Positions 176 to 26,100 of a stretch of 43,481 bases of DNA are shown here, in pieces. The notes below the pieces were generated by a model that saw only the letters and a program-made list of their open reading frames with translations, did not search any database and was not told the DNA's origin. Each line of letters starts with the position of its first letter. The stretch's first letter is position 1. This stretch comes from a candidate division WOR-3 bacterium (GTDB taxonomy: Bacteria; SDB-A), in the NCBI GenBank assembly GCA_016934535.1, contig JAFGSQ010000011.1:1-43481 (forward strand), written 5' to 3'. The position numbers and the translations under genes were made by a program.

Positions 176-521
176 GGGGGCGAAAAGGTTTCGACGGGAC
201 TGAATGTCTCAGAGCTGCACGCCGGGCTGCCGATGCTCGTCAAAAAACGGCAAAAAATCAACTGCCAACAGCAGTTATTCACTAGCCGCTTAATTTAGCG
301 GCTCCTCTGCTTCTCTGTCGCCTGTCGTGGAGAATGTCAGGGGTCGCGCAGACAGGCTACCCACTGAACCTTGCGCGGGGGGACGGGGGAAACAAATAGC
401 GCTGGTCCCGAAAAAATCTTGTCCGGAGGAGGTTTTCGGGATGAGAACAAATTCCGGAATAAGCGTGTAGGTGTTTTGAAGGCTACTATCTCGGACGCGG
501 GTTCAATTCCCGCCGCCTCCA
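176..521 (+). ncRNA. ssrA: tmRNA; tag peptide (A)ANSSYSLAA* encoded at 264-293
   Basis: 5' GGGGGCGAAAAGGTTTCGAC and 3' GGACGCGGGTTCAATTCCCGCCGCCTCCA form the tRNA-Ala-like domain with a T-arm. The internal ORF GCC AAC AGC AGT TAT TCA CTA GCC GCT TAA ends in the typical LAA. CCA is not encoded. Confidence 0.97.
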
Positions 522-526
522 TAAAA

Positions 527-3686: not shown

Positions 3687-4001
3687 TTAATCTCTGAAAG
3701 GTTTGAAAGAAAATTCCTCAAGATCAATTTTCCCTTCTTTGTCAAACACGATTCCTTCTTTTGAAAGCATTTTTTTCTGCAGGGAGTAAGCTCTTTTTTC
3801 AGTAAAAGAGATCTTGCCCATGGAGTTTATGACTCTGTGCCACGGCAAAGAATACTTTTCACTGCAGGAATGAAGTATTCGGGCCACTTGTCGTGCCGAC
3901 CCCGGTGATCCGGCGCAAAAAGCTATTTGCTTGTATGTCATGACTTTTCCCGCCGGGATCATTTTAATAATTTCGGCGACTACGAGAGTGAATTCTTCCA
4001 T
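3687..4001 (-). CDS. Alkyltransferase-like (ATL) protein of the MGMT family
   Basis: IPAGKVMTYKQIA and ARQV motifs. PWHRV has Trp in place of the catalytic Cys of PCHR, which is typical of ATL proteins. Confidence 0.88.
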   Translation of the reverse strand: MEEFTLVVAEIIKMIPAGKVMTYKQIAFCAGSPGSARQVARILHSCSEKYSLPWHRVINSMGKISFTEKRAYSLQKKMLSKEGIVFDKEGKIDLEEFSFKPFRD

Positions 4002-4101: not shown

Positions 4102-5463
4102 TTGAAAAACGGCGACACAAATAAATTTGATCCTGAAAGCATATCCTATCTAAATATATGGACGTTATCATGGCCCGTGATGGTCTCTTCTCTCGGATTC
4201 ACATTGCTCAATACGGTCGACATGTTCTGGATAGGAAAATTAGGTCACGTGTCCGTCGCCGCCGTCAGCATAGTCGGTTCACTTTTCTGGCTGTTGATGT
4301 CCTCGATTGCTTTGGTTTCGTCAGGCACCGTGGCTTTTGTATCCAGGGCCGCAGGATCCGGCGACAGTGATTTGCTCAAAAACAGCATATCTTTATCACT
4401 ATTTTCATCTTTGATAATATCGGTCTTGATTGTCGTCCCTTCATTTATATTTGCCAGGCAAATACTCGGTTTTTTCGGAGCCGAAAACAATGTTCTCAGA
4501 GAAGGTGCGGTCTATTTGTATATTATGCTCACAGGTTTTCCCGTTATTTTCATTTTTGAAATTTTCAACAACGCTTTCTTCGGCATTGGCGATTCAAAGA
4601 CTCCAATGAAAATTACTTTCATCGCTCTTGTGATAAACATTATTTTGGACCCGTTTCTCGTGTTCGGCTGGTCTTTTTTCCCGAGACTCGAAACAGCTGG
4701 AGCCGCTATTGCGTCAGTGTTTTCACTTTTCGCAGGTTTCTCCATTTATCTATTGTTTTTCTTCAGAAAATTCGGTTTCATCGTCCCTGCCGTTCACACG
4801 AAAATCTTCTCTCAATTCTTCAAAACAGGAGTGCCCGCTTTTTTTTACGGTATCACGAGACCGATAACCGGAACACTTATGTACAGAATAGTGGCATTAT
4901 ACGGAACATCATCCATTGCGGCTTTCGGCATAGGCAGCAGAGTGATAGGAATAACATTTATATACATGGACGGACTCATGATCGCCGTACAGACCTTTGT
5001 AGGACAATTACTGGGAAAGAAAGACCCGAAAAAGGCTAAAAAAGCCGCCATGAGGTCCCTGAAAATGGGTTATTCAGTTCAGATTTTCACTTGCGCTTTC
5101 ATGTTTCTCTTTTCTGATAAAATTATAGCCTTTTTCAATACAAATCCTGACGTGCTTCTCAGCGGTTCTTCTTATTTGAAAGTGATAGGGATTTCGCTCG
5201 TTTTTTATCCTCTTTCTGCCACTTTCAGCGCCGTACACCGAGGTTCCGGTTACAACATACCGCCGCTGATAGCTTCTGTTGTCTCAAACTGGATAATAAA
5301 ATTGCCGCTCTCATACGCTCTTGCAAAGTATCTGGGACTTGATTATACAGGCGTCTGGATTGGAATTGGATTTTCACTTCTCATTGAATCCACGATATTA
5401 GCCTTCTACTACAAAAAAGGGGATTGGTCTCGACATTCAGTACCCCCGACCCCGTGCATATAA
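4102..5463 (+). CDS. MATE family efflux transporter
   Basis: About 12 TM segments; NTVDMFWIGKLG, GDSKTPM, NIILDP and GAAIAS motifs. Confidence 0.92.
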   Translation: MKNGDTNKFDPESISYLNIWTLSWPVMVSSLGFTLLNTVDMFWIGKLGHVSVAAVSIVGSLFWLLMSSIALVSSGTVAFVSRAAGSGDSDLLKNSISLSLFSSLIISVLIVVPSFIFARQILGFFGAENNVLREGAVYLYIMLTGFPVIFIFEIFNNAFFGIGDSKTPMKITFIALVINIILDPFLVFGWSFFPRLETAGAAIASVFSLFAGFSIYLLFFFRKFGFIVPAVHTKIFSQFFKTGVPAFFYGITRPITGTLMYRIVALYGTSSIAAFGIGSRVIGITFIYMDGLMIAVQTFVGQLLGKKDPKKAKKAAMRSLKMGYSVQIFTCAFMFLFSDKIIAFFNTNPDVLLSGSSYLKVIGISLVFYPLSATFSAVHRGSGYNIPPLIASVVSNWIIKLPLSYALAKYLGLDYTGVWIGIGFSLLIESTILAFYYKKGDWSRHSVPPTPCI

Positions 5464-5497: not shown

Positions 5498-5527
5498 GAA
5501 TAATCTTCAAATAGGGGAGGTTTGTTT

Positions 5528-7411
5528 ATGCTATCAATAATGTTGTCGTTGTTGATCGGTTTCAACACCGCTCAATACGTAGTAAACGGCGACTTCGAGC
5601 AGGATCTCAACACGGGATGGAAACAGGTTTTAAACGGAGCCGGAGCAAGCATAACCCGTTCCACCGCCTTTGATCCTGATCCCAATTACGAAGTTCGAGT
5701 CGGTAAATCCACAGGAGGAGGGTACGCCCTTCTTTCACAGACAATTTCGGTTCCGACAACCGATTTGGTTTTTTCAGCCAACGCAAAAATTTACGCTGTG
5801 GCCACTTCGACTGCCTGGGCTGGATCGGCGCTCATTCTGAAGTACCTGGACCAGAACGGAAATATTCTCGGTGAGACGAGAATTTGCGCAAAGACCGGGT
5901 ATTGTCCTTGGGCAAACTCACCGACAATGCATTTGATAGTAGTTCCGGATTCCCAATGGCACAATCATTCTTTCAACGTCAACACCGAACTTGCAAATCT
6001 CACGGCTGTAAATCCAGACAACGTAAAAAATATAGAAATTGCCCTGTTTGACTCAACGTACGATTGTTGAGGGGGCTCAGAATTGGCGGAGGTCTCCGCC
6101 GACGATGTGACACTGTCTTACACAGGCTCAACCCCTTACATAGTCCTTGTTCAGACAACCATAGACGACGATGCCGGAAACAACAACGGCAGACTCGACC
6201 CAGGAGAAACGATAGATCTCACCGCAACTATAAGGAATGCCGGCGGGGTCAATTTCACCAACGTCTCTTCACATTTGATATCAACAGACCCCTACATCAA
6301 CATAACCGATAACACAGGTGTATTCGGCGCTCTCATGATAGACAGTGTAAAAACTAACAATTCGGATCCCTTCACTTTGACTTGCAACGCTTCAACTCCC
6401 GAAGGGCATGAAGCCTCGTTCGGCCTTGTGATTAACGACGGAAGTTATTATGACACACTTGAATTTATAATAGTTGCGGGACATTATTCTTACCTCGTAC
6501 TCAATCTCGACGCCACCCCTCAGTCCGGAAATAACATCGACAGTATTTTGGACGCTCTCGGATATTCGGGAACCGTCACCGCGTCTCTTCCTTCCGATCT
6601 CTCCATATACAGGACTTTGTTCGTATGCCTCGGAATTTATCCAAACAACACAGTAGTTTCAGCTGGAGGCGAAATAGCGAACTCTATTGTGGCTTTCCTC
6701 AATAACGGCGGAAGCGTTTACATGGAGGGCGGCGACATGTGGTACTACGATATCGGGACCGGAGGTCACGATTTCGGACCGATGTTCGGTATACAACCTG
6801 TCGCTGACGGATCAGGTAATCTCGGACCTGTTGTAGGCATTTCAGGCACCTTCACTGCGACGATGAATTTCAACTACGGCGGTGAAAACAGCTACATAGA
6901 CCAGATAAACGCCACCGGAACCGGTACAGTTATATTCAGTGACGGAAACGACAACTACAACTGCGGAGTGGCTAATCAAACCTCAACATACAGAACCGTC
7001 GGCACGAGTTTCGAGCTCGGAATGCTCACAGATGCAGCTGACGCTTCGACCAGATCCGATTTACTCGACTCTATAATGACCTTCTTCCTGGAAGGATTGA
7101 ACGCCGTCGCCGAACAACCTGTTGTAAATCCATCGCCGACTTCTCTCATGATCACCCCGAACCCGTTCGTAAAACATGTGACTATAAGTTTCACAGCTCC
7201 GTCCGGAGTTACATCCGGAATGGAAATATTTGACATCTCGGGAAGAATAGTCAGAGAGTTTTCCTTCGGACAATCGGAAAACGACCGGATAGTCACGGTA
7301 AATTGGGACGGTAAAGACGGAAACGGAATTGAAGTGCCGGAGGGCGTCTATTTTGTCAATGTCATAGCCGGAGAAAGTTCGGGTTCAGAAAAACTGATTT
7401 TGGTAAAATAA
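5528..7411 (+). CDS. Candidate secreted selenoprotein, paralog 1 (627 aa; TGA at codon 181 read as Sec; C-terminal FlgD/T9SS-type domain)
   Basis: ORFs 5522-6070 and 6083-7411 are in the same frame, separated by a single TGA (6068-6070) in ...YDC-TGA-GGSELAEVSADD. A SECIS-like hairpin follows. Hydrophobic N-terminus; C-terminus PNPF...IFDISGR...WDGKD...GVYFV...KLILVK. Confidence 0.8.
6083..6102 (+). promoter_or_regulatory. Bacterial SECIS-like hairpin, copy 1
   Basis: TTGGCGGA-GGTC-TCCGCCGA: 8-bp stem with one G-U pair and a GGUC loop starting 21 nt after the TGA. Confidence 0.78.
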
Positions 7412-7412
7412 T

Positions 7413-7437
7413 AAAAGGGGGCCACTGCCCCCTTTTT
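7413..7437 (+). terminator. Intrinsic terminator after paralog 1
   Basis: AAAAGGGGGC-CACT-GCCCCCTTTTT hairpin with a U tract. Confidence 0.85.
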
Positions 7438-7526
7438 CTTTTCACTGATTTCTTTTCCGTTTATTTGCGCCGGCAGCAGAAAGCGAATGATATTGCAGTT
7501 TAAAAATCACATAGCGGGAGCCTAGC

Positions 7527-9410
7527 ATGATTGGCATACTTTTTTCTTTACTAATCGGATCCAACTCCGCTCATTATATGATAAACGGGAATTTTGAACA
7601 GGATCTTTCCTTGGGATGGGAACAGTTCATCAATGCCTGGGGCGCTGAAATAATCCGCGGAACAAATTTTGACCCGGATCCCGATTTCGAAGTCAAGGTC
7701 ATCAAACCTACCGGCGGAGGGCACGTAATTCTGGGCCAGATTGCGTTCGTTCCGACAACAGACATCGTTTTTTCAGCTGATATTAAATTATTCGCGAGCG
7801 CCACGTCGACATCCTGGTCGGCAGCGGCTCTGGTGATAGGATATATAGACGCTGAAAACTCCCTGCTCGGTGAGACGAGAATATGCGACAGGACAAGCTA
7901 TTGTCCGTGGATCAGCACTCCGACGATACATCTGATGGAGGCTACAGACTCCATGTGGCATTATTACACTTTCAATTTGAGCGACGAACTAACCAATCTT
8001 TCCGGAATAAATCCTGATAATGTCCAAAAAATCAGAATAGAGCTTCTCGACACTTCTTATAATTGTTGAGGCGCTTCGCAATTGGCGGAGGTCTCCGCCG
8101 ACAATATATCTCTTTCGTATAGCGGTCCGAACCCGTACGTCTCAATCATCAGCAAAACAGTCCTGGATCTGACCGGAAACAATGACGGACATCTCGATCC
8201 GGGAGAAACAGCCGATCTGACAGTCACTCTGAAAAACATAGGCGGGGTGAATTTCTCCACCTTGACGGCAACTCTTGTCTCAGACGATCCGGATGTTTCT
8301 GTAACAGACAACAGCGCAATTTACGGGGTAATAGCAATAGACAGTTCCAAGACGAATTCATCTGATCCGTTCACCGTCGTCTGTTCCTCATCGGCGCAGG
8401 AAGGGAGGGAGGCGCTTCTGAAACTGATTCTCAGAGACGGATCTTACTGCGATACTATGCCTTTGACATTGACAATCGGCATGTACGATTATCTCGTCCT
8501 CAATACAGATCCTACTCCCGTATCCGGATTCATCATAGACAGCGTTCTTTCCACGCTCGGTTATTCAGGCGTTTACACAGTAGAACTGCCTTCCGATCTG
8601 TCCTATTTCAAGTCGCTTTTCATCTGCCTCGGAGTCTGGCCCGACAATACAATCATACAACCGGGCAGCGATTACGAGACGGCTCTTGTAAATTTCATAA
8701 ATTCCGGCGGAAACGTATTTATGGAAGGCGGAGATGTATGGTTTAACGACCCTCTTGCCGGAGGTTGTAATTTCGGTCCGCTGTTCGGCATACAATCTTC
8801 CGGCGAAGCTTCAAACAACCTCGGACCGGTGTACGGTATTTCCGGGGCTTTCACTGCAGGCATGAATTTCGGATACGCGGGAGAAAGCAATTTCATAGAC
8901 TGTTTGAATCCCGTGGGAAACGGATTCAGAATACTTAGAGATCCGAACGACAATTACAACTGCGGAGTCGCAAACCAGACTGCCGATTACAAGACAGTAG
9001 GCATGAGTTGCGAACTGGGTATGCTCACCGACTATTCGGGCGTATCAACCAGATCAGCTTTGCTGGATTCAATAATGAGATTCTTCGGAGAAGAGGCAAA
9101 TTCTGCCGAGGAAATTCCGATCAAGACGGGTCCCGTTAATCCGATTTCTGCTTTCCCCAATCCGTTCACCGAACGAATTCTGATAACTTTCACGGCACCC
9201 ACAAACGTTATTTCAAGAGCCGAAATATTCGACATATCAGGAAGAACAGTCCGCGAATTCACTTTCGGCGCATCCGGCGTTGACAGATTAGTGACTATTG
9301 AATGGAACGGGAAAGATGAACAGGGAAATGGACTTCCCCGTGGCGTTTATTTTGTTAAAGTATCGGCTGGCGAAAATTCGGACCAGGAAAAAATGATCTT
9401 TGTTGAATAA
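7527..9410 (+). CDS. Candidate secreted selenoprotein, paralog 2 (627 aa; TGA at codon 181 read as Sec; C-terminal FlgD/T9SS-type domain)
   Basis: ORFs 7527-8069 and 8082-9410 are in the same frame, separated by a single TGA (8067-8069) in ...YNC-TGA-GASQLAEVSADN. It has the identical hairpin and aligns end to end with paralog 1. Confidence 0.8.
8082..8101 (+). promoter_or_regulatory. Bacterial SECIS-like hairpin, copy 2
   Basis: TTGGCGGA-GGTC-TCCGCCGA, identical to copy 1 and at the same +21 loop spacing. Confidence 0.78.
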
Positions 9411-9436
9411 AAAAGGGGGTGAAAACCCCCTTTTTT
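9411..9436. terminator. Bidirectional intrinsic terminator
   Basis: AAAAGGGGGT-GAAA-ACCCCCTTTTTT between convergent genes. Confidence 0.85.
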
Positions 9437-9637
9437 ACCTTTTTTTATTCAGGTAGTATTTCCTTCTGTCGTCGTTAAATTTTTCAATTGAATATCTGAG
9501 CATAGTTCTGGGCATTTTCGTGCAGTGTTCATCCAGGAATTTTTCGAGGACAGGTTTGTCTTTCCTGCTTTCCCGGAACATGCGTTTTGCCTGAGTTCTT
9601 TTCTGATTCGGTTCAGTGTTATTTTTTCAGAACTCAA
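9435..9637 (-). pseudogene. Internally deleted DNA alkylation repair (AlkD-like) gene remnant
   Basis: N-terminal frame MSSEKITLNRIRKELRQNACSGKA is joined out of frame to RKDKPVLEKFLDEHCTKMPRTMLRYSIEKFNDDRRKYYLNKKR*, which resembles the AlkD-family C-terminus. Confidence 0.72.
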
Positions 9638-11996
9638 AAACGACTCCTCCGACTACCATTCTGCCCATCTGATATACGCTTTCAACATCCCCGTCTTCGG
9701 CGTAATAATAATCCCAAACATTCGGATGATTGAAAAGGTTTTCAACCTCGAAATAATAGACAAGGTTCCATGATTTGAAATACCACCTGTTTGACAGCAT
9801 GATGTCGAACCTCTGATAAGGCGCCACTCTCGCCGAATTATAGAGCTGATTCGGATCTGTTACCCACCTTCTCCATTCAGGATGATAAGTCACGGGGGTG
9901 TATGGTTTGCCGCCAAGATATCTGTATTTCAGAGTGTATCCTGATTCGTCAGCCGGTACGAAAGGTAGGAACGAGATAATTTTATACAAAAGCGTCTTGG
10001 AAAAATTCCGGTACCAGGAATCCTTCATGAAATCTTTTTTATAACCGGCTATAACTGTAAAAACGTTTCCGTAATCAAAATCCCAACTGTATTCCCTGTC
10101 GTTGTCGCGCGGATCGAAAGCTCTCGCAACCGAATATGAATAACTGATCGTGCCCCAGAAATTCTTCATGACTTTTTTCTGAAGAAAAAATTCGATCCCT
10201 TTGGCGTATCCCTCTCCTTCGTTTATAAAAACGCCGTCCCAGTCGTTCGGATCGGAAGTTGTGGAAGACCTGTCAATAGGAACGTCCCGGTAATGTTTGT
10301 AGTAGCCTTCCACAGTGATTTTTATGTCGTCTGCAAAAAGATGTTCGATTCCAACGACTGCCTGTTCAGTGTATTTGCTTTTCAAAAAATGGTTTTGCGG
10401 ATCGAAAGCGAGCTCGTACCATTGCGGGGATTGATAATGAATTCCGTATGCGGCGTTGAGATCTGTTGCGGGAGTCAGGTGAAAAGTCAATGAAAGCCTC
10501 GGTGAAATGCAATCGAATTCCGTGTAATCGAATTTGTCATATCTCAGGCCAAGCCCCAGCGTGAGAAATGAACCGGCATCGTGTCTCAACTGGACATAGC
10601 CTCCGTATTTCCAGGAATCCGCTTCTTCGTCAACGTCTATGACGGTGATATAGTCGGTTGTGTCTACGATGTTGCCCGATGAATCGTATATGAAAAGGGT
10701 GTCCGGTCTCGCCCATGTCTCGTAATGAAATATTACATTTTTAGCGAACGCCCCCACAGCGAGTTTAGTGTGCCTTGCGAAATTGATGTTCAGGTCGAAT
10801 TTTGCTGTATTTTCTCCCTCGTCGGAGTCGTTGAACAGGTATCTCCTGTCGAGAGTGTCTATTATGTCATGGTTCCAAGTGCTGTACGTCCTGGAAAGCG
10901 TTAAATTATAATAACCCAGTGAATACAGTGATTTAAGACTGGCTCCAACAGTGTATTGATCGGATATGGCTTCTATCGTCTTTATATCATCGTATATCTC
11001 TTCGTCCGCTTCATCAGAGCTCTCTATTCTGATCCAGTCTTTTCCGTATATTCCGAGAAACGTAAGCTTCCTCGTGTACGAAAGATCATACACAGCTTTG
11101 AAATGGACATTGTAGTAATGCGGAACGGCTGTCAATCCGAAGCTTGAAGCTATAAGAGACAAAAAACTTCTGTGCGCCGACAAAAGGAAACTTCCGTTTC
11201 CCAAAGGCCCTTCGACTGTTCCTCCAGCACCGGCCATGCTCATGTCAAATTTATAATGCATCTTGTCTCTGGCGCCTTCTCTCAAAGTGATGTCGAGAAC
11301 GCTCGAAGCTTTGTCTCCGTACCTCGCGGGAAAAGCGCCGGCCATGAAATCAATACTTCTTATGAAATCAGTATTTATGACGCTGACAGGACCTCCACCG
11401 GTTCCCTGCCATCCGAAATGATTCGGATTGAGCATTTCCATGTTGTCTATGAGAAATAGGTTCTCGCCGTAGTTGCCGCCTCTGACAATTATCTCATTGT
11501 TCTGATCCGATCCGGAAACGACGGCCGGCAAAGCCTGTACGGCTCTTTGAACATCGTATACCCCTCCTGGTTGAGAAATTATTTCCTCGAAATCCATACT
11601 TCTCGTCGAAACAACTGCGTCTTCTGGTTTTTCAAAAAATTTCGGCCTTACGGTTATTCCTTCCATCTGAATCAGTTCCTCTTCGAGTTCGAAATCGACG
11701 TATGTCGTTATGTTGGGCCTGACGGAGATTCTGCTTTTGAAAAGAGTTTTATATCCCATTCTCATCGCCCTGAGGTTGTAACTGCCGACGGACAATCCTT
11801 CGATAGAATATGAACCGTCAGTTCCGGCTATCACTCCGGTCAATATGTTGCCGTCTATGTCGAACACAGCTACACTGGCTCCAATCACGGGTTGATGTGT
11901 GTGAGTGTCTATTACTTTACCTGAAATGGAAACTGCCGCAGAAACAGCGCCTGCCGCAAAAATTATTAACAAAAATATTAATGCTAATTTCTTCAA
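9627..11996 (-). CDS. TonB-dependent receptor with N-terminal carboxypeptidase-regulatory-like domain
   Basis: Signal peptide, ISGKVID...GASV domain, plug motifs IIVRGG and GAFPARYG, and C-terminal aromatic residue (VVFEF). Confidence 0.9.
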   Translation of the reverse strand: MKKLALIFLLIIFAAGAVSAAVSISGKVIDTHTHQPVIGASVAVFDIDGNILTGVIAGTDGSYSIEGLSVGSYNLRAMRMGYKTLFKSRISVRPNITTYVDFELEEELIQMEGITVRPKFFEKPEDAVVSTRSMDFEEIISQPGGVYDVQRAVQALPAVVSGSDQNNEIIVRGGNYGENLFLIDNMEMLNPNHFGWQGTGGGPVSVINTDFIRSIDFMAGAFPARYGDKASSVLDITLREGARDKMHYKFDMSMAGAGGTVEGPLGNGSFLLSAHRSFLSLIASSFGLTAVPHYYNVHFKAVYDLSYTRKLTFLGIYGKDWIRIESSDEADEEIYDDIKTIEAISDQYTVGASLKSLYSLGYYNLTLSRTYSTWNHDIIDTLDRRYLFNDSDEGENTAKFDLNINFARHTKLAVGAFAKNVIFHYETWARPDTLFIYDSSGNIVDTTDYITVIDVDEEADSWKYGGYVQLRHDAGSFLTLGLGLRYDKFDYTEFDCISPRLSLTFHLTPATDLNAAYGIHYQSPQWYELAFDPQNHFLKSKYTEQAVVGIEHLFADDIKITVEGYYKHYRDVPIDRSSTTSDPNDWDGVFINEGEGYAKGIEFFLQKKVMKNFWGTISYSYSVARAFDPRDNDREYSWDFDYGNVFTVIAGYKKDFMKDSWYRNFSKTLLYKIISFLPFVPADESGYTLKYRYLGGKPYTPVTYHPEWRRWVTDPNQLYNSARVAPYQRFDIMLSNRWYFKSWNLVYYFEVENLFNHPNVWDYYYAEDGDVESVYQMGRMVVGGVVFEF

Positions 11997-12011: not shown

Positions 12012-13730
12012 TTATTTCATTATCAATATTCCGAAAGTCGCCGGATCATATTCAATCGGAGTCTGCCAGTCGGCGTTCGCGCTTCCCGGCTGTTTTCTCC
12101 TGAAATTCAACAACATCACATCTCCTGAATTCAGGACAAGTCCTTCAAACTGAGAAACCGGAATTTTTGCTTCGAAGACCCAGTAATCGTCAAGCACATT
12201 AACGGCGCTCTCGATTTCTCCGTTCCATTCATTGTCCCCTTCATAAGAACCGGATTCATTTTTTACGAGCAAGGCGTCGTACAGCGTGCCCAGCGTATTA
12301 CAGTAAATCTGGTACATGCATTCTTTTCCGGTGTCGGGCATAATAAAATAACCGACGCAGTCCTCCGAAAAAATATTTTCGTCGCGAATCGTTTTTTCGG
12401 CGATTATGGAACTCATGTCTTCTTCATGACACAATGCCAATAGATAAAGGTTTTGCGTGTCGTAAGCAAAATAAAATTTGACATCGTCAGCAGTGGAAGA
12501 AATCTCTCCGCCTGAAAAAAACACTGTCACAGGCTCTTTCCAGCAGTTTTCATCCCCCACTCCGTCTATTGTCATCGGATTGTCCACCCTGACGGCATAA
12601 GCCTTTCTTTGAATTCTCAAATTTTTGGCAAGCGAAAAACTCATATCACTTCTCACGGGATAATTTATACTCAGCGAAGGAAGAGGATAAAGATTTCCTG
12701 AGTTGTTGAAAATAGCTTCAAAAGAGACCGAATCTCCCGGTTCGAGGTATACTGGTTTTTCTGAAAACGAAGCCGCCCAACCCTCGGGAAGATCGATTTT
12801 CAAAGTGTCACTCAAAGGCAAGCCGGGCAAAAGATTTCTCACCGTAATTCTCACGGAGGCGTCGACTACGGAAAGATCGCCGCCAACCTGAACCGGCGAC
12901 ATTATTTCAACACCTTCCGTCACCGCTTTGTCGGCGAGTTGAATGTCAGGAACGGTCACTTGGTCCCAGGAATGAACGCCCTCAAGAGATATTACGGCTA
13001 TCTCAATATTTTTATCGTCCGCACTGACCATAAGAAAATGATAAGCAGGACCGAGAATTCCCAGATGGGTTTCAGCCCCGGAACTGCCTACGCCGGTGTA
13101 TTTTATTCCGTCAATTTCGGCGCTGAAATATATGTGGTAATGGCCCGTAAAAACCGCGTCTACTCCGTATTTGACAAAAAGATCGTGAAGAGGCTCATCT
13201 TGCCCCTGAGAAAGTGTTTCAAACCAGAATGGCTTGTGATAAAAAACAAAAATCTGACTGGCTTCGCTGTTTTTTTTCAGGTCCTCTTCGAGCCATTCAA
13301 TCTGATCGCGGGAGTATTCCGATGAATTTTCAAGGCGCGAATTGTCCAGAACAATAAAATGAAACTTTCCATGGTCAAAACTATAATACGGTTCTCCGAC
13401 CATTGACCTGTAAATCGCATCCTGAACGTCGTTTGTTATGTCATGATTTCCCGGCGTGAAATAGAAAGGGCACGACAGGTTTCTTATGTGAGGGAGCAGT
13501 TCGTTCCATTCTTCCGTAATTTCCTGCTCGTTTTCGCTGTAACCTTCAATGAGGTCGCCGACGTTAATTATTAGGTCCGGATCGAGCATGTCGGCCTGAA
13601 CCAGAGCTTTTTCAAACACGCCTTCAACGTGCCCGCCTGTTCTGTCTCCCATGACGGCAAAGTGAATGTCAGCAGAAAAAACATTCGTTGCCAGGAAAGC
13701 AAAGAAAATAATCGCCAAAAGTTTTTTCAC
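12012..13730 (-). CDS. Secreted calcineurin-like metallophosphoesterase with C-terminal CBM9/DOMON-like domain
   Basis: MGD, VGDLI, PGNHD, HKP and GHYH motifs. The C-terminal domain has TIDG..DE..W, YD..NLY and W..E..IP. Confidence 0.82.
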   Translation of the reverse strand: MKKLLAIIFFAFLATNVFSADIHFAVMGDRTGGHVEGVFEKALVQADMLDPDLIINVGDLIEGYSENEQEITEEWNELLPHIRNLSCPFYFTPGNHDITNDVQDAIYRSMVGEPYYSFDHGKFHFIVLDNSRLENSSEYSRDQIEWLEEDLKKNSEASQIFVFYHKPFWFETLSQGQDEPLHDLFVKYGVDAVFTGHYHIYFSAEIDGIKYTGVGSSGAETHLGILGPAYHFLMVSADDKNIEIAVISLEGVHSWDQVTVPDIQLADKAVTEGVEIMSPVQVGGDLSVVDASVRITVRNLLPGLPLSDTLKIDLPEGWAASFSEKPVYLEPGDSVSFEAIFNNSGNLYPLPSLSINYPVRSDMSFSLAKNLRIQRKAYAVRVDNPMTIDGVGDENCWKEPVTVFFSGGEISSTADDVKFYFAYDTQNLYLLALCHEEDMSSIIAEKTIRDENIFSEDCVGYFIMPDTGKECMYQIYCNTLGTLYDALLVKNESGSYEGDNEWNGEIESAVNVLDDYWVFEAKIPVSQFEGLVLNSGDVMLLNFRRKQPGSANADWQTPIEYDPATFGILIMK

Positions 13731-23129: not shown

Positions 23130-26100
23130 AGACGCCCTTCTTTTCGTCGAGATATATCAATACGCATTCAATTTTTCGTCCCGTATATATTTCTTCGAGC
23201 TTTTTTTTATACTTTTTTATCTGTTCGGAATGCTCTTTTTCATTCTCGCTTCCCGTCTTGAAATCAACAACCGCCATTGCGTCTTTTCCAACTACAATTC
23301 TGTCGGGCCTGTAAATTTCACCCGAATCAGACAAGATTTCCCGTTCATTAAAGAGTTCAATATCACCTACGAAATATTTTGAAATTTCAGGTTTTAAAAG
23401 ATAAGAGATCATCTCTTTTCTTTCATTTTTGTTCAGCAATTTCAGCCCGAGTCTTTCTTTCAAGTCTTCCTCGAATTTTTCACCGCTTTTATAAACTCCG
23501 AGAAACGAAAGAGTTTCATGTATCGTTTCTCCTCTTTTCTGTCTGTCAGATTTGATTTCACCGGTTTTGTAAACCAGATACTCCTTGTTCATGCTGAAAA
23601 CCGGCGTTTTTTTTGAAGGAATCCCAAGGAATTCTGAGTCAATTTCCGTTTTTATTTTTTTTTCATTGAGTGTTCCGAATGACAATAAATTATTTCCGTC
23701 AATTTTTTCCTTGATATGCCTGTTCTCTAAAACAATGTCCTGAAAACAGTTGATTCTGTTGATGCCCGTTTTATTTTCTCCGCTCTTTTTTCTTTTCCCT
23801 ATCATAAACAAACCGTGTTTTGCTCTTGTCATCGCTACGTAAAGCAGGTTAAATTCGCCCGAGTTGTCTTTGACGATACTTTTCCGGTAAACGTTTCCCA
23901 GTCTTTCGTCCAGACCCGCCCACTCCTTTTTAATATATTTAATTCCGGTTTCATCAGTGTATATGCTGTCGGTATTACCTTTTAATTCTTCGGAAATATC
24001 CAGTATTACATTGCTGAATTCGAGTCCTTTTGATTTGTGCAGCGTCAATAGTTTGATTTTATCCTCTCCCTGAGGTATGTCGATGTAAAAGGTCCGGTTC
24101 TTTTCTGACAAGATGTCTTCTATGAAAGAGAGAAAAGATGAAATTGATGTTCGTTGTGAAACCTCCAAATCGTGAAGTGTCTCTCCTAACTTGATTATGA
24201 AGAAGGATGACTCGGGAAAATTTTCATAAATCCTGAATCTGTAAATCATGTCCTGAAAAATGTCGTAAGCTGTCATGAAACCCACAGACTTGAAAAAAGG
24301 ATCTACAAATCTGTTCCACACTTCGCCGTGTTCGTCTCTGAAAACCGAATAAAACCGTCTCTGGGCTTTATAATACAAATCGTCGCGATGACGGTATTTA
24401 ATTCCTAAAGATTCGGCGGCTTTTCCGAGTAATCTGCTGCCGGCGAATTCGAAAAAACTGAGATCGTCCGGAGGAAAATCTAGAAATCTGATGAATGAAA
24501 TGATCTCCCTGATCAAGGCATCGTTTGTCAAATACATTGCCTCGTCAGTTATGCATTCGTGCCCTTTTTCAGAGAGATATTCAAACAGCTCCTTAATATG
24601 GTCGTTTTTCCTCAAAAGTACTGCAATGTCGCCGTTTTTCCATCCGGATTCTTTTAATTTAACTATCGTCTCATGAATTCTCGAATAAGCGGGATTTTCT
24701 AAATCGTCATTTTTTTCGACAACAGAGATTTCGACATAACCTGCGTCAAAATTTTTAAAAGCCGGAAGTTTTTGTTCCGTGTTTGAATAATTCCCGTCGA
24801 ACTCGTTTTCCAATCCGAAAACACCCAACATATCAAGATTCTCTTTTTTCCAGAAGGAATTGTTGAAACCGACGATTTCCCTGTCGCTCCTGAAGTTGTA
24901 ATCCAGATTTTCTCTGTAGGTGCCGGCAGTTCCCGCGCTTTCCTTTAGTTCGAAAAGTTCCAGCACTTTCTCCTGATCGAGCATCCCGCTTTCTATGCCG
25001 CGCCATTGATATATGGCCTGTTTTCTGTCGCCGACAATAAAAAGCGAGCTGTTCTCTTTTTCCGAAACGACGGCGTTGCTCGCCAGAGGAGCCAGCATTT
25101 TTATCTGAGCCGTGCTCGTGTCCTGAAATTCGTCTATGAGGTAATGAGAAAACCTTTCAGACAGTTTAAGATAAAGATAAGGAAGAGATTCTTCAGTGAG
25201 GCAGTTTTTAATAAGGGAGAATATCTCCTGCAGGTATACTGTGTTTTTATTCCTTCCGGAAAAATGAACCGTGAACTCTTCCGTCAGATTAGAAATCGCA
25301 GCCACTTTCAGGGAGGAATATATGTATACGAATTCTTTGAGCGACTTTGAAAACGGATCGAATACATCTTTTATTTCTTTTTTTACATCATCTCCCGTTT
25401 TGACCCTGATAATGTAGTCGTAACTTTTTGAAACAAAGGATTTTTCGGCTATTTTAATAAGTTGTTCAAATGTTTTTCGGTCATCATGAATTATAGATCT
25501 GAGAGACTGCCCTGCAGATTCTGAAAATGTATTGTGATTAATTTTACCGTAGTGCTTTTCAATGACCTCCAAATACTTTTTGCACAGCGAAACACTGCCG
25601 TAAAATGCTTTCCAAAGCTTATTTTCAAGGTTCTTAATTTCAATTATTTTTGAGCTCTCATTTTTTAAACTAAATATGCCGGCAATTTTTTTTATTAATG
25701 CTTTGTCTAAATTGAAATTTCCTCGGGGGTCTAATTGCACGATTTCTTCAATAGAAGTTTCCACTTCCCGCCAGTTGTTTTCGACTTTTGTTATGAGAAA
25801 ATCGCGCACCAAATCTTCCAAATCTTCTTTGATATTATCTTTGAGTTTAAAATCCGCCTTTATCCCTTGAATCTCCGGAGAGACCACTTTCAGTATTTTA
25901 GCTGACAGGGAATCTATCGTTCCCGTGTTGTAGTCTGAATAGCATGTCGTTATGAGCTCGAGAAAAAATTTCGACCAGGTTGCGACTATTTTTCTGCTTT
26001 CGTCTGCTTTAAAACCGCATCTTTCAGAAACTTCATCGAAAACTGTCATAATCGCGCCGTCGTAATTGCTATCAATATCCGAAAACTTCCAAAGATAGCC

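What the first reader, a model, noticed from the sequence alone, without database searches (positions are those of the whole stretch)
5528..9410. Tandem pair of candidate novel secreted selenoproteins hidden as four split ORFs
Seen: each ORF pair (5522-6070 with 6083-7411; 7527-8069 with 8082-9410) is one reading frame broken by a single TGA. From the RBS-supported ATGs (5528, 7527) both genes are exactly 1884 nt, and the TGA is codon 181 in both, in the context TGT-TGA-GGN (Cys-X-Gly). The paralogs are otherwise visibly diverged, so two independent nonsense mutations are implausible, and neither downstream half shows decay. The downstream TTG 'starts' lie inside a hairpin with no convincing RBS, and each gene has one terminator, after the second half. 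Established: bacterial Sec insertion uses UGA plus a hairpin immediately 3' of it. Inference: two 627-aa selenoproteins made of a leader, an NGDFE (CBM-like) domain, Cys-Sec-Gly, an Ig-like domain (NNGRLDPGET), an alpha/beta domain and a FlgD/T9SS-type CTD. I do not recognise this architecture among known bacterial selenoprotein families, which are mostly oxidoreductases and thioredoxin-like proteins.
Basis: partly seen in the sequence, partly recalled or inferred. Interest (0 to 1): 0.95.

Follow-up and report, generated by a model that had tools for sequence, protein, structure and literature searches.

The report
Secreted lectin-fold selenoprotein gene pair
The four "split" reading frames are two whole genes for exported surface proteins. 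Each carries one selenocysteine encoded by UGA, and they belong to a large, multi-phylum selenoprotein family that the catalogues I checked do not list and that gene callers cut in two.

Summary
Window 5528-7411 and 7527-9410 are two 1884-nt paralogs, 55% identical with no gaps. Each has a single TGA at codon 181 in TGT-TGA-GGN, its own ribosome-binding site and one terminator.

The selenoprotein reading is strongly supported:
- The genome has tRNA-Sec, selA, selB and selD.
- TGA is otherwise its commonest stop codon.
- All 9 full-length homologs in 41 related genomes keep one TGA at that column. So do 12 of 12 domain matches in five distant genomes.
- A 6-bp hairpin with a GGUC loop starts 17 nt from the U of UGA. 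It meets the published bacterial SECIS model and pairs in 384 of 384 cells across 70 genes, with compensatory changes at 3 of 6 pairs.

Domain order: leader, CBM-like jelly roll carrying Sec in its last loop, Ig-like domain, class I glutamine-amidotransferase-like domain, T9SS sorting domain.

Nothing matched in Pfam, NCBIfam, a 2026 table of 119 prokaryotic selenoprotein families, or four literature searches. The biochemical role is inferred only. Sec always has a nearby Cys, either vicinal or at position 96, which suggests a surface selenolate/thiolate redox or soft-metal site. This scan has noted similar secreted lectin-like selenoproteins on other DNA.

The parts
5514..5520 (+). Ribosome-binding site GGGGAGG of gene 1
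   Evidence: Read directly; lies 7 nt before ATG 5528.
5528..7411 (+). Selenoprotein gene 1: 627 codons plus TAA, Sec at codon 181
5567..6121 (+). CBM-like beta-jelly-roll domain (aa 14-198) with Sec181 in the loop between its last two strands
   Evidence: AF2 models: pLDDT 84.8 for the whole protein and 94.9 for the domain. VIA Z 12-15 to carbohydrate-binding modules. Foldseek gives similar hits.
6068..6070 (+). UGA selenocysteine codon of gene 1 (C180-U181-G182)
6085..6100 (+). bSECIS hairpin GGCGGA-GGUC-UCCGCC, which also encodes A-E-V-S-A
6137..6478 (+). Ig-like beta-sandwich domain (aa 204-317, motif NNGRLDPGET)
   Evidence: Secondary structure of the AF2 model. The same module occurs in homologs that carry Peptidase_C25.
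6479..7099 (+). Class I glutamine-amidotransferase-like / ThuA-like alpha/beta domain (aa 318-524) with nearly invariant C367 in a V-C-L-G elbow
   Evidence: VIA Z 14-17: 5xb7_A 17.0, 2gk3_A 16.1, 3rht_A 15.0. Conservation of C367.
7148..7402 (+). T9SS C-terminal sorting domain (aa 541-625)
   Evidence: PF18962 29.6 bits and PF13860 31.6 bits, both above the cut-off of 27. TIGR04183 36.7 bits, above its cut-off of 23.
7413..7436 (+). Intrinsic terminator of gene 1 (10-bp stem plus T run)
7516..7520 (+). Ribosome-binding site GGGAG of gene 2
7527..9410 (+). Selenoprotein gene 2: 627 codons plus TAA, Sec at codon 181, with the same four domains
8067..8069 (+). UGA selenocysteine codon of gene 2
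8084..8099 (+). bSECIS hairpin of gene 2, identical 16 nt
9408..9437 (+). Intrinsic terminator of gene 2

Best explanation
Each gene is translated as one 627-residue precursor. At UGA181, SelB with Sec-tRNA(Sec) is recruited by a minimal bacterial SECIS: a 6-bp stem with a GGUC loop, starting 17 nt from the U of UGA, inside the coding sequence. This inserts selenocysteine instead of terminating (decoding is shown by comparative evidence; it has not been tested biochemically). The N-terminal leader takes the protein across the inner membrane. The C-terminal Por_Secre_tail domain then hands it to the type IX secretion system, which the genome encodes, so the protein ends up on the cell surface or outside (inferred from the domains). 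The working head is a carbohydrate-binding-module-like jelly roll. Its last loop carries Sec next to a Cys: the vicinal C180 as here, or in other subfamilies a Cys at position 96. My best guess for the chemistry is that this selenolate/thiolate pair is a surface-exposed redox-active selenenylsulfide or soft-metal(loid)-binding site that acts on whatever the lectin-like domain binds. This part is inference, at roughly 35-40% for redox, 25% for metal(loid) binding and 20% for a structural Se-S link. The Ig-like and GATase-like domains form a stalk module that other proteins of these bacteria use to display C25 peptidase heads. The confidence given (0.9) is for the claim that these are genuine, single-polypeptide selenoprotein genes, not for the chemistry.
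For: Sec machinery: tRNA-Sec(TCA) spans the overlapping ends of C11 and C67 (50.7 bits, cut-off 47) and is followed by selA (421.7 bits) and selB (308.7 bits). selD (361 bits) itself has one in-frame TGA.

TGA is a normal stop in this genome: it ends 573 of 1066 stop-to-stop open frames of >=300 codons (all six frames).

Conservation of the codon:
- 9 of 9 full-length homologs in the 41 genomes searched have exactly one TGA, aligned in an invariant C-U-G column, down to 34% identity.
- A profile of the N-domain alone finds 12 matches in five distant genomes, and 12 of 12 have one TGA.
- Against 1.84 billion representative proteins, the same profile finds 288 proteins at E<=1e-3. Of the best 150, 81 end in Cys exactly at the Sec position. 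By my reading of the list, about 35 more end within a few residues in G, T or S. These are gene calls cut at the TGA.
- A JGI call of 628 aa has W at the site, which means TGA read by another code.

Hairpin:
- In 70 genes it pairs in 384 of 384 cells, 3 of 6 pairs have changes on both sides, and 0 of 500 shuffles reach the observed values. Slid controls pair in 17-64% of cells.
- The changes are non-synonymous on both arms: E(GAG/GAA) with S in 30 genes, K(AAG) with F in 33, E with F (G.U) in 5, K with L in 2. The mismatching K with S is seen in 0, although the scan pattern allowed it.
- It satisfies the four published bSECIS constraints: loop 3-9 nt, stem 4-16 bp, G[G/U] at the loop start, loop 16-37 nt from UGA (here 23 nt from the U), and MFE <= -7.5 kcal/mol (here -19.1 and -15.2).

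One polypeptide: each pair of halves has one RBS and one terminator. The TTG restart is not conserved. The C-half has a T9SS CTD but no leader of its own (sequence).

Other support: selA is present in 5 of 5 distant genomes that carry the family. T9SS PorU (479 bits) and SprA (427.8 bits) are present. At least one Cys-form relative exists: P0129 has S-C-G aligned to C-U-G.

Partner Cys: of 40 genes with C before U, 0 have Cys96. Of 30 without it, 20 have Cys96 and 4 have CxxU or UxxC.
Against: - There is no direct evidence of selenium incorporation, and no RNA or protein data. No RNA run holding the stretch was listed.
- The 53-nt folds are not exceptional against shuffles (z -1.47 and -1.21). 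For gene 2 the MFE structure is a competing fold, not the conserved hairpin.
- The hairpin lies in a conserved peptide (A-E/K-V-S/F/L-A-D), so part of its conservation is protein-level.
- The 67 loci were found by that very peptide, so they are a biased sample. Searches are not.
- Cys-form homologs are few. Only 1 of the 14 non-Sec relatives I aligned has Cys cleanly at the Sec column. The others have a divergent loop.
- The leaders of the two window copies are short and lack a basic n-region. No signal-peptide predictor was available.
- The function is wholly inferred. I could not measure distances between residues 96, 126, 180 and 181 in the models. Related genes are not independent, so the Cys96/Cys180 complementarity may reflect only two or three subfamilies.
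Confidence: 0.9

Rival explanations
1. The UGA is a real stop. Each locus makes two proteins: a 180-residue exported jelly-roll domain, and a 442-residue protein started at TTG 6083/8082.
For: This is how public gene callers annotate the family: C-halves of about 420-445 aa and N-halves of about 185-190 aa. Some termination at Sec codons is normal for selenoproteins (established knowledge).
Against: The TTG is not conserved in homologs and has no RBS; it abuts the hairpin. The C-half has a T9SS sorting domain but no leader, so alone it could not reach the periplasm. There is no terminator or promoter signal between the halves beyond chance. The two frames stay in phase in all 21 homologs checked.
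Confidence: 0.03
2. The UGA is read through without selenium, for instance as Trp, Cys or Gly by near-cognate or recoded decoding.
For: One public call translates the site as W. The frame is open under code 4 or 25.
Against: TGA is the commonest stop in this genome, and two homologs themselves end in TGA. Each gene has exactly one internal TGA, always followed by a SECIS-type hairpin. Full Sec machinery is present. selA is present in 5 of 5 other carriers.
Confidence: 0.03
3. These are decaying pseudogenes with independent nonsense mutations.
For: None beyond the presence of a stop codon.
Against: The stop lies at the same column in paralogs that are 55%, 40% and 34% identical and across several phyla. 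There are no gaps or frameshifts. Both halves are conserved.
Confidence: 0.01
4. Function rival: Sec forms a structural selenenylsulfide cross-link that resists the reducing, sulfidic surroundings of these anaerobes better than a disulfide. On this view it is not a catalytic or metal-binding site.
For: Non-Sec relatives have Cys residues in the same loop, and in some of them (P0099, P0107, P0113) also the CPW Cys. Sec genes without a vicinal Cys mostly have Cys96 on a neighbouring strand (20 of 30). A lower redox potential for Se-S than for S-S is established chemistry (recalled).
Against: In 40 of 70 genes the nearest Cys is the adjacent residue. A vicinal Cys-Sec ring cross-links nothing, and in thioredoxin reductase it is a redox centre (recalled). 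No distances were measured in the models.
Confidence: 0.2
5. Function rival: the protein is a surface capture protein for a soft metal or metalloid (Hg, As, Cu, Se) that feeds the adjacent TonB-dependent receptor.
For: Several catalogued families with a C-U motif are metal-related: SaoL, HgcA, MbdU and a 2Fe-2S protein (Table 1 of PMC13188914). A TonB-dependent receptor gene lies at 9627-11996 on the minus strand, just downstream.
Against: The receptor neighbourhood is not conserved. In five distant genomes, none of 12 family genes lies near a Plug-domain gene; the closest pair is 67 kb apart on G040:C3. The residue before Sec varies.
Confidence: 0.2

Closest known systems
SelB/bSECIS-decoded bacterial selenoprotein genes (archetype E. 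coli fdhF; consensus model in PMC13188914, Fig. 2 legend)
   Same: In-frame UGA, with a coding-region stem-loop whose apical loop starts with GG/GU and lies 16-37 nt downstream. tRNA-Sec, selA, selB and selD are in the genome. As I recall it, the GGUC loop is the same tetranucleotide as in the fdhF apical loop; this was not checked here.
   Different: The protein is not an oxidoreductase of any listed family. The hairpin is very short (6 bp) and is nearly sequence-invariant across phyla.
Carbohydrate-binding modules of the beta-jelly-roll superfamily (CBM4/16/61-like; e.g. 8xmz porphyran-binding CBM, 4d0q hyaluronan-binding module, 2zew CBM16)
   Same: Same fold: VIA Z 13.6 (rmsd 2.4, 134 aligned), 12.9 and 12.3. 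The N-terminal NGDFE start is typical of such modules (recalled).
   Different: Sequence identity is only 16-19% and there is no Pfam hit. None of these modules is known to me to contain Sec. Ligand-binding residues were not examined.
Thioredoxin reductase C-terminal Gly-Cys-Sec-Gly redox centre (recalled)
   Same: A vicinal Cys-Sec-Gly triplet, present in 30 of the 68 loci scored and in all three copies in this genome.
   Different: Here the triplet sits in an internal loop of a lectin-like domain of an exported protein, not on a flexible C-terminal tail of a flavoenzyme. The Cys is replaced by G, T, S or Y in 30 of 70 genes.
T9SS cargo proteins with a Peptidase_C25 head in the same bacteria (P0035, P0043)
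   Same: The 420-residue Ig + GATase-like + CTD module is shared at 42-45% identity.
   Different: The head is a Sec-bearing jelly roll instead of a gingipain-type peptidase.
Catalogued selenoprotein families with a C-U motif (SaoL, SaoC, HgcA, MbdU, KCU-star, Csac_0668 2Fe-2S; Table 1 of PMC13188914)
   Same: Adjacent Cys-Sec.
   Different: None of their NCBIfam models hits these proteins at E<=0.1. Their folds and cellular locations differ.

Membership tests
Bacterial selenoprotein (SelB/SECIS-dependent) | In-frame UGA conserved at the same column in homologs | tested here: met
   9 of 9 full-length homologs. 12 of 12 N-domain matches in five distant genomes. 67 of 69 genome-contig loci.
Bacterial selenoprotein (SelB/SECIS-dependent) | bSECIS: 3-9 nt loop, 4-16 bp stem, G in the first two loop positions, loop 16-37 nt from UGA, MFE <= -7.5 kcal/mol | tested here: met
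   4-nt GGUC loop, 6-bp stem, loop 23 nt from the U of UGA, MFE -19.1 and -15.2 kcal/mol. Criteria taken from PMC13188914 section 5. Covariation shown.
Bacterial selenoprotein (SelB/SECIS-dependent) | tRNA-Sec, SelA, SelB and SelD encoded in the genome | tested here: met
   All are above the curated cut-offs.
Bacterial selenoprotein (SelB/SECIS-dependent) | Cys-containing homologs at the Sec position | tested here: inconclusive
   P0129 has S-C-G aligned to C-U-G. The 13 other non-Sec relatives aligned have a divergent loop. 3 of the 17 read-through hits were not aligned.
Bacterial selenoprotein (SelB/SECIS-dependent) | Selenium demonstrated in the protein | not testable with these tools
   Needs 75Se labelling or mass spectrometry.
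Any catalogued prokaryotic selenoprotein family | Match to a family model or an entry of the catalogue | tested here: not met
   NCBIfam 20.0 and Pfam give only CTD/FlgD hits. No entry among the 119 rows of Table 1 of PMC13188914 fits.
T9SS type A cargo | C-terminal Por_Secre_tail domain above the cut-off | tested here: met
   PF18962 29.6 and 31.6 bits (cut-off 27). TIGR04183 36.7 and 41.5 bits (cut-off 23).
T9SS type A cargo | T9SS translocon and sortase in the genome | tested here: met
   PorU 479 bits (cut-off 420). SprA 427.8 bits (cut-off 200).
T9SS type A cargo | N-terminal Sec-type signal peptide | tested here: inconclusive
   A hydrophobic 16-residue leader ending A-Q is visible. The paralog on C18 and the G040 homologs have classical leaders. 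No predictor was run.
Carbohydrate-binding module (beta-jelly-roll CBM superfamily) | Jelly-roll fold similar to solved CBMs | tested here: met
   Z 12-15 to 5w6h, 8xmz, 4d0q and 2zew. Foldseek E 4e-7 to 2e-5.
Carbohydrate-binding module (beta-jelly-roll CBM superfamily) | Binds a glycan | not testable with these tools
   Needs glycan arrays or binding assays.
Class I glutamine amidotransferase | Cys-His-Glu triad | tested here: inconclusive
   The fold is met (Z 14-17) and C367 in V-C-L-G is nearly invariant. I saw no conserved His in the expected H-P-E position: the sequence reads S-F-E-L. The positional equivalence is judged by eye.

The most novel reading that the evidence does not exclude
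This is a founding example of a large, so far unrecognised extracellular selenium biology. Anaerobic uncultured bacteria (WOR-3, Cloacimonadota, Eisenbacteria, Stahlbacteria, Thermoanaerobaculia) display selenocysteine on lectin-like heads at the cell surface through T9SS. There a selenolate/thiolate pair carries out chemistry that Cys cannot sustain outside the cell. Candidates are reduction or capture of sulfur, selenium or soft-metal species, or opening disulfides of bound glycoprotein substrates ahead of the sister C25 peptidases. Sec would then be a catalytic residue in a non-thioredoxin, non-oxidoreductase fold.
Probability: 0.3. Interest if true: 0.85.

Novelty: new member of a known kind. 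Interest (0 to 1): 0.62.

Why it matters
Almost all catalogued bacterial selenoproteins are cytoplasmic or periplasmic redox enzymes, most with thioredoxin-like folds (PMC13188914, section 7). This family puts Sec on a carbohydrate-binding-module fold of a protein exported by type IX secretion. It is large: 288 clusters at 50% identity reach E<=1e-3. It occurs in several phyla and often in several copies per genome, with 3 here and 6 in G045. Every public annotation I saw splits or truncates it. Selenoproteomes of these uncultured lineages are therefore under-counted, and hundreds of "hypothetical" half-proteins can be repaired. The nearly invariant 16-nt hairpin gives a simple search handle. 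It also offers a compact, portable SECIS that fits in five codons. If the Sec site proves catalytic or metal-binding, it would open a testable question: what does selenium do outside the bacterial cell?

Tried and rejected
- Foldseek on the whole 627-residue model gave only multi-domain GH2-type hits with TM about 0.2. This was uninformative, so I searched the domains separately.
- A profile of the C-terminal part against PDB sequences found only the CTD/FlgD region: PorU 6za2 at 9e-6 and FlgD.
- A functional link to the neighbouring TonB-dependent receptor is rejected as a conserved feature. None of 12 family genes in five distant genomes lies near a Plug-domain gene.
- A phylum-wide count was uninformative because the phylum holds only 6 genomes.
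- No RNA holder was listed for the stretch.
- An ESM Atlas look-up of the N-domain was not obtained. Whether language-model neighbours suggest a function stays open.
- A genome-wide scan for in-frame TGA followed by a GGTY-loop hairpin gave 8 hits. Three are this family, one is a peroxiredoxin, one is another CTD protein, and three look like wrong-frame noise.
- Literature: 'selenoprotein' with 'WOR-3' gave 0 papers, with 'type IX secretion' 1 irrelevant paper, and with 'Cloacimonadota' 0. 'Selenocysteine' with 'T9SS' gave 2 papers with no title or abstract hit; I judged them from their titles only.
- The deep-Sep paper has no passage on sorting, secretion or carbohydrate.
- Supplementary tables of these papers were not available and might list further predicted families.


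Full report
**Observation.** Table-11 ORF listing shows the four pieces 5522-6070, 6083-7411, 7527-8069 and 8082-9410 on the + strand. With TGA read through, 5528-7411 and 7527-9410 are each one 1884-nt frame with a single TGA at codon 181. The context is TGT TGA GGG and TGT TGA GGC. The two products are 343/627 identical (55%) without a single gap, and conservation is even on both sides of the TGA. GGGGAGG (5514-5520) and GGGAG (7516-7520) precede the ATGs. Strong terminator hairpins with T tails follow only the second halves, at 7413-7436 and 9408-9437.

**Is the UGA a selenocysteine codon?**

*Genome.* The window is the whole contig C19 of a 2.23-Mb, 76-contig genome scored 100% complete.
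- ARAGORN finds one tRNA-SeC(tca).
- Rfam's tRNA-Sec model scores 50.7 bits (cut-off 47) at the start of C11. The same gene continues at the start of C67, because the two contig ends overlap within the tRNA.
- Directly downstream on C67 lie selA (421.7 bits) and selB (308.7 bits, cut-off 242).
- selD on C56 scores 361 bits and itself contains one in-frame TGA in the usual G-U-x-x-K context.
- TGA is not generally a sense codon here. It ends 573 of 1066 stop-to-stop open frames of at least 300 codons (all six frames), against 361 for TAA and 132 for TAG. Two family members themselves end in TGA.

*Homologs.* A six-frame search of 41 genomes (this one, its 5 closest relatives and 35 others) found nine full-length homologs. 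Three are in this genome: the two here and one on C18 at 40% identity. One each is in G001, G003, G004 and G005, and a tandem pair is in G040, which belongs to another family-level group, at 34-35% identity.
- All nine have exactly one TGA inside the match.
- A tenth hit, in G002, is cut by a contig end before the site.
- In the alignment the TGA falls in one invariant column flanked by invariant Cys and Gly.
- A profile of the N-terminal domain alone, run on five further genomes reached through distant loci, found 12 matches, and 12 of 12 contain one TGA. selA is present in 5 of 5 genomes tested (G041-G045), four of them among the five searched; G040 was not tested for selA.

*Public gene calls* show the same thing from the other side.
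- The word-indexed search returns mostly C-terminal halves of 420-445 residues.
- The exhaustive profile search of 1.84 billion representatives returns 288 proteins at E<=1e-3 (74 at E<=1e-30).
- Among the best 150, 81 end in Cys exactly where the profile reaches the Sec column. By my reading of the list, about 35 more stop within a few residues of it in Gly, Thr or Ser.
- One 628-residue JGI call carries Trp at the site, which is TGA translated by another table.

**The hairpin.**
- Seventeen nucleotides from the U of UGA begins GGCGGA-GGUC-UCCGCC (6085-6100 and 8084-8099).
- In the nine close homologs the stem changes in a compensatory way (GGCGAA/UUCGCC, AGCCAA/UUGGCU, GGCUAA/UUAGCC) while the GGUC loop stays fixed.
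- A scan of one genome per species for the peptide this hairpin encodes gave 69 loci. Of these, 67 have an in-frame TGA five to eight codons upstream of the hairpin's Ala codon (19, 45, 5 and 1 genes at 5, 6, 7 and 8 codons, counting the three copies of this genome). In L084 my pattern did not re-find the peptide. L121 has its TGA further upstream.
- On the 70 hairpins (64 distinct rows), all 384 cells form standard pairs. Three of six pairs show changes on both sides, and none of 500 shuffles reaches the observed pairing, covariation score or pair-type count. Sliding the 3' arm drops pairing to 17-64%.
- The covariation crosses the genetic code. Glu (GAG/GAA) goes with Ser (UCC/UCU) in 30 genes, Lys (AAG) with Phe in 33 and with Leu in 2, and Glu with Phe (a G.U pair) in 5. 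Lys with Ser would give an A.C mismatch and was allowed by the scan pattern, yet it never occurs. Protein-level selection does not explain this, so the RNA structure is under selection.
- The element meets all four constraints of the consensus bSECIS model as given in the 2026 review (section 5 read): a 4-nt loop, a 6-bp stem, GG at the loop start, the loop 23 nt from the U of UGA, and MFE of -19.1 and -15.2 kcal/mol for the 53-nt stretches.
- Against this, the z-scores of those stretches versus shuffles are only -1.47 and -1.21. For gene 2 the MFE fold is a competitor of the conserved hairpin. The 67 loci are also a sample chosen by the hairpin peptide. Searches are free of that bias.

**One protein or two?** The TTG at 6083/8082 is the Leu of S-E-L-A-E-V. 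Homologs have Thr, Ser or other residues there, so no conserved restart exists. No RBS precedes it. The C-terminal half carries a T9SS sorting domain but no leader, so by itself it could not reach the secretion system. I take the single read-through polypeptide as established to the extent that sequence comparison can establish it.

**What the protein is.**
- Pfam and NCBIfam recognise only the C-terminal FlgD_ig/Por_Secre_tail domain.
- AlphaFold2 on a 35-row alignment gives mean pLDDT 84.8 and four domains.
- The N-domain alone, on a 77-row alignment, gives pLDDT 94.9 and pTM 0.88.
- The N-domain (aa 14-198) is a beta-jelly roll closest to carbohydrate-binding modules and phage tailspike lectin domains. 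By VIA-align: 5w6h_A Z 14.8 (rmsd 2.6, 144 aligned), 8xmz_B Z 13.6, 4d0q_A Z 12.9, 2zew_A Z 12.3. Foldseek agrees.
- Sec181 lies in the loop between the last two strands.
- Residues 204-317 form an Ig-like sandwich.
- Residues 318-524 have the class I glutamine-amidotransferase/ThuA/GH42-domain-B fold (5xb7_A Z 17.0, 2gk3_A 16.1, 3rht_A 15.0). They include a nearly invariant Cys367 in a V-C-L-G elbow, but I could not recognise a conserved His of a triad.
- This 420-residue Ig + alpha/beta + CTD module recurs at 42-45% identity behind Peptidase_C25 domains in other proteins of these bacteria. Some family members consist of just the Sec domain plus a short C-terminal tail, with frames of about 300-340 codons. 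The Sec jelly roll is therefore the variable 'head' and the rest a display stalk.
- The genome encodes the T9SS sortase PorU (479 bits) and translocon SprA (427.8 bits).

**Clues to chemistry.**
- The residue before Sec is Cys in 40 of 70 genes, as here. Otherwise it is Gly, Thr, Ser or Tyr.
- None of the 40 C-U genes has Cys at position 96 (numbering of gene 1). Of the 30 others, 20 have Cys96 in an S-T-C-W-P motif, and 4 have C-x-x-U or U-x-x-C.
- A further Cys, C126 in C-P-W, is present in 49 of 77 aligned rows, including non-Sec relatives.
- Sec thus nearly always has a Cys partner, but the partner's position switches between subfamilies. That fits a selenenylsulfide or selenolate/thiolate pair, either redox-active or binding a soft metal(loid). 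These genes are related to one another, so the counts overstate independence. I could not measure distances in the models.
- Non-Sec relatives exist: 17 of the best 150 hits read through the site, and I aligned 14 of them. Most have a different loop, often with one or two Cys. P0129 has S-C-G aligned with C-U-G.

**Neighbourhood.** Flanking genes are a MatE exporter (4102-5463), a TonB-dependent receptor (9627-11996, minus strand), a metallophosphoesterase with CBM9 (12012-13730, minus strand) and a cyclase/TPR protein. The receptor association is not conserved in five distant genomes, so I draw nothing from it. Tandem pairs recur, in G040, G042 and G045.

**Comparison with what is known.** Decoding is the textbook SelB/bSECIS mechanism. 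The family itself matched nothing:
- No NCBIfam selenoprotein model hits it.
- None of the 119 families and subfamilies in Table 1 of the 2026 review resembles it (section 7, parts 1-2 read).
- The deep-Sep paper has no relevant passage.
- Four literature searches found nothing on selenoproteins in WOR-3 or Cloacimonadota or among T9SS cargo.
- Supplementary files could not be consulted.
- Record titles place carriers in candidate division WOR-3, Cloacimonadota, Eisenbacteria, Stahlbacteria and Thermoanaerobaculales.

Within this scan, a sequence look-up found no look-alike of this protein. Earlier notes do describe similar secreted, lectin-like or T9SS selenoprotein families on other DNA (e1-889992, e1-1108389, e1-4632340) and a Sec formate dehydrogenase in this same genome (e1-904103). 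I did not test those notes.

**Verdict.** These are genuine selenoprotein genes with about 0.9 confidence. They belong to a large family that I found in no catalogue, with an unusual fold and location for Sec. Decoding is canonical and function is unknown, hence 'new member of a known kind' and interest 0.62.

Noticed in passing
G000:C43:8186-9169 (+), TGA at C43:8441: Another candidate exported selenoprotein in this genome. It has a leader, then G-A-F-U-S-G-C (a U-x-x-C motif) followed by a CUGCAG-GUCUGCAG-type hairpin, and a C-terminus that starts a YPNPF sorting-domain motif. It is not related to the family studied here.
   Followed up: partly
G000:C2:21591-22325 (-), TGA at position 23507 of the reverse-complemented contig C2 (the scan's own coordinate): A peroxiredoxin with Sec in the F-Y-P-G-D-F-T-F-V-U-A-T-E active-site motif and a GGUC-loop hairpin. 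This is a known selenoprotein family (TxxU Prx).
   Followed up: partly
G000:C11 start (-) and C67 start (+): The tRNA-Sec gene is split across two contig ends that overlap by about 75 nt, so C11 and C67 are adjacent in the genome. The order is tRNA-Sec, selA, selB.
   Followed up: yes
window 176-524 (+): A tmRNA gene (RF00023, 185.9 bits) at the start of the contig.
   Followed up: no
window 3687-4001 (-): A small 104-aa ORF matching only the DNA-binding domain of O6-methylguanine-DNA methyltransferase (PF01035, 76.8 bits). Methylated-DNA-protein-cysteine methyltransferase is listed as a selenoprotein family in the review's Table 1. I did not check whether an upstream TGA-containing part exists here.
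   Followed up: no
G045 (C44:22811-24368, C6, C58, C13, C87) and G042:C246:716-3618: The family is multi-copy and often tandem in distant genomes. G045 has six copies, each with one TGA, and G042 and G040 each have a tandem pair.
   Followed up: partly
L115, L117, L123, L126 (hairpin region): Four distant members have the loop AGUU (GGCGGA-AGUU-UCCGCC) instead of GGUC, through Glu GAA and Val GUU codons. The G-U in the loop is kept.
   Followed up: partly
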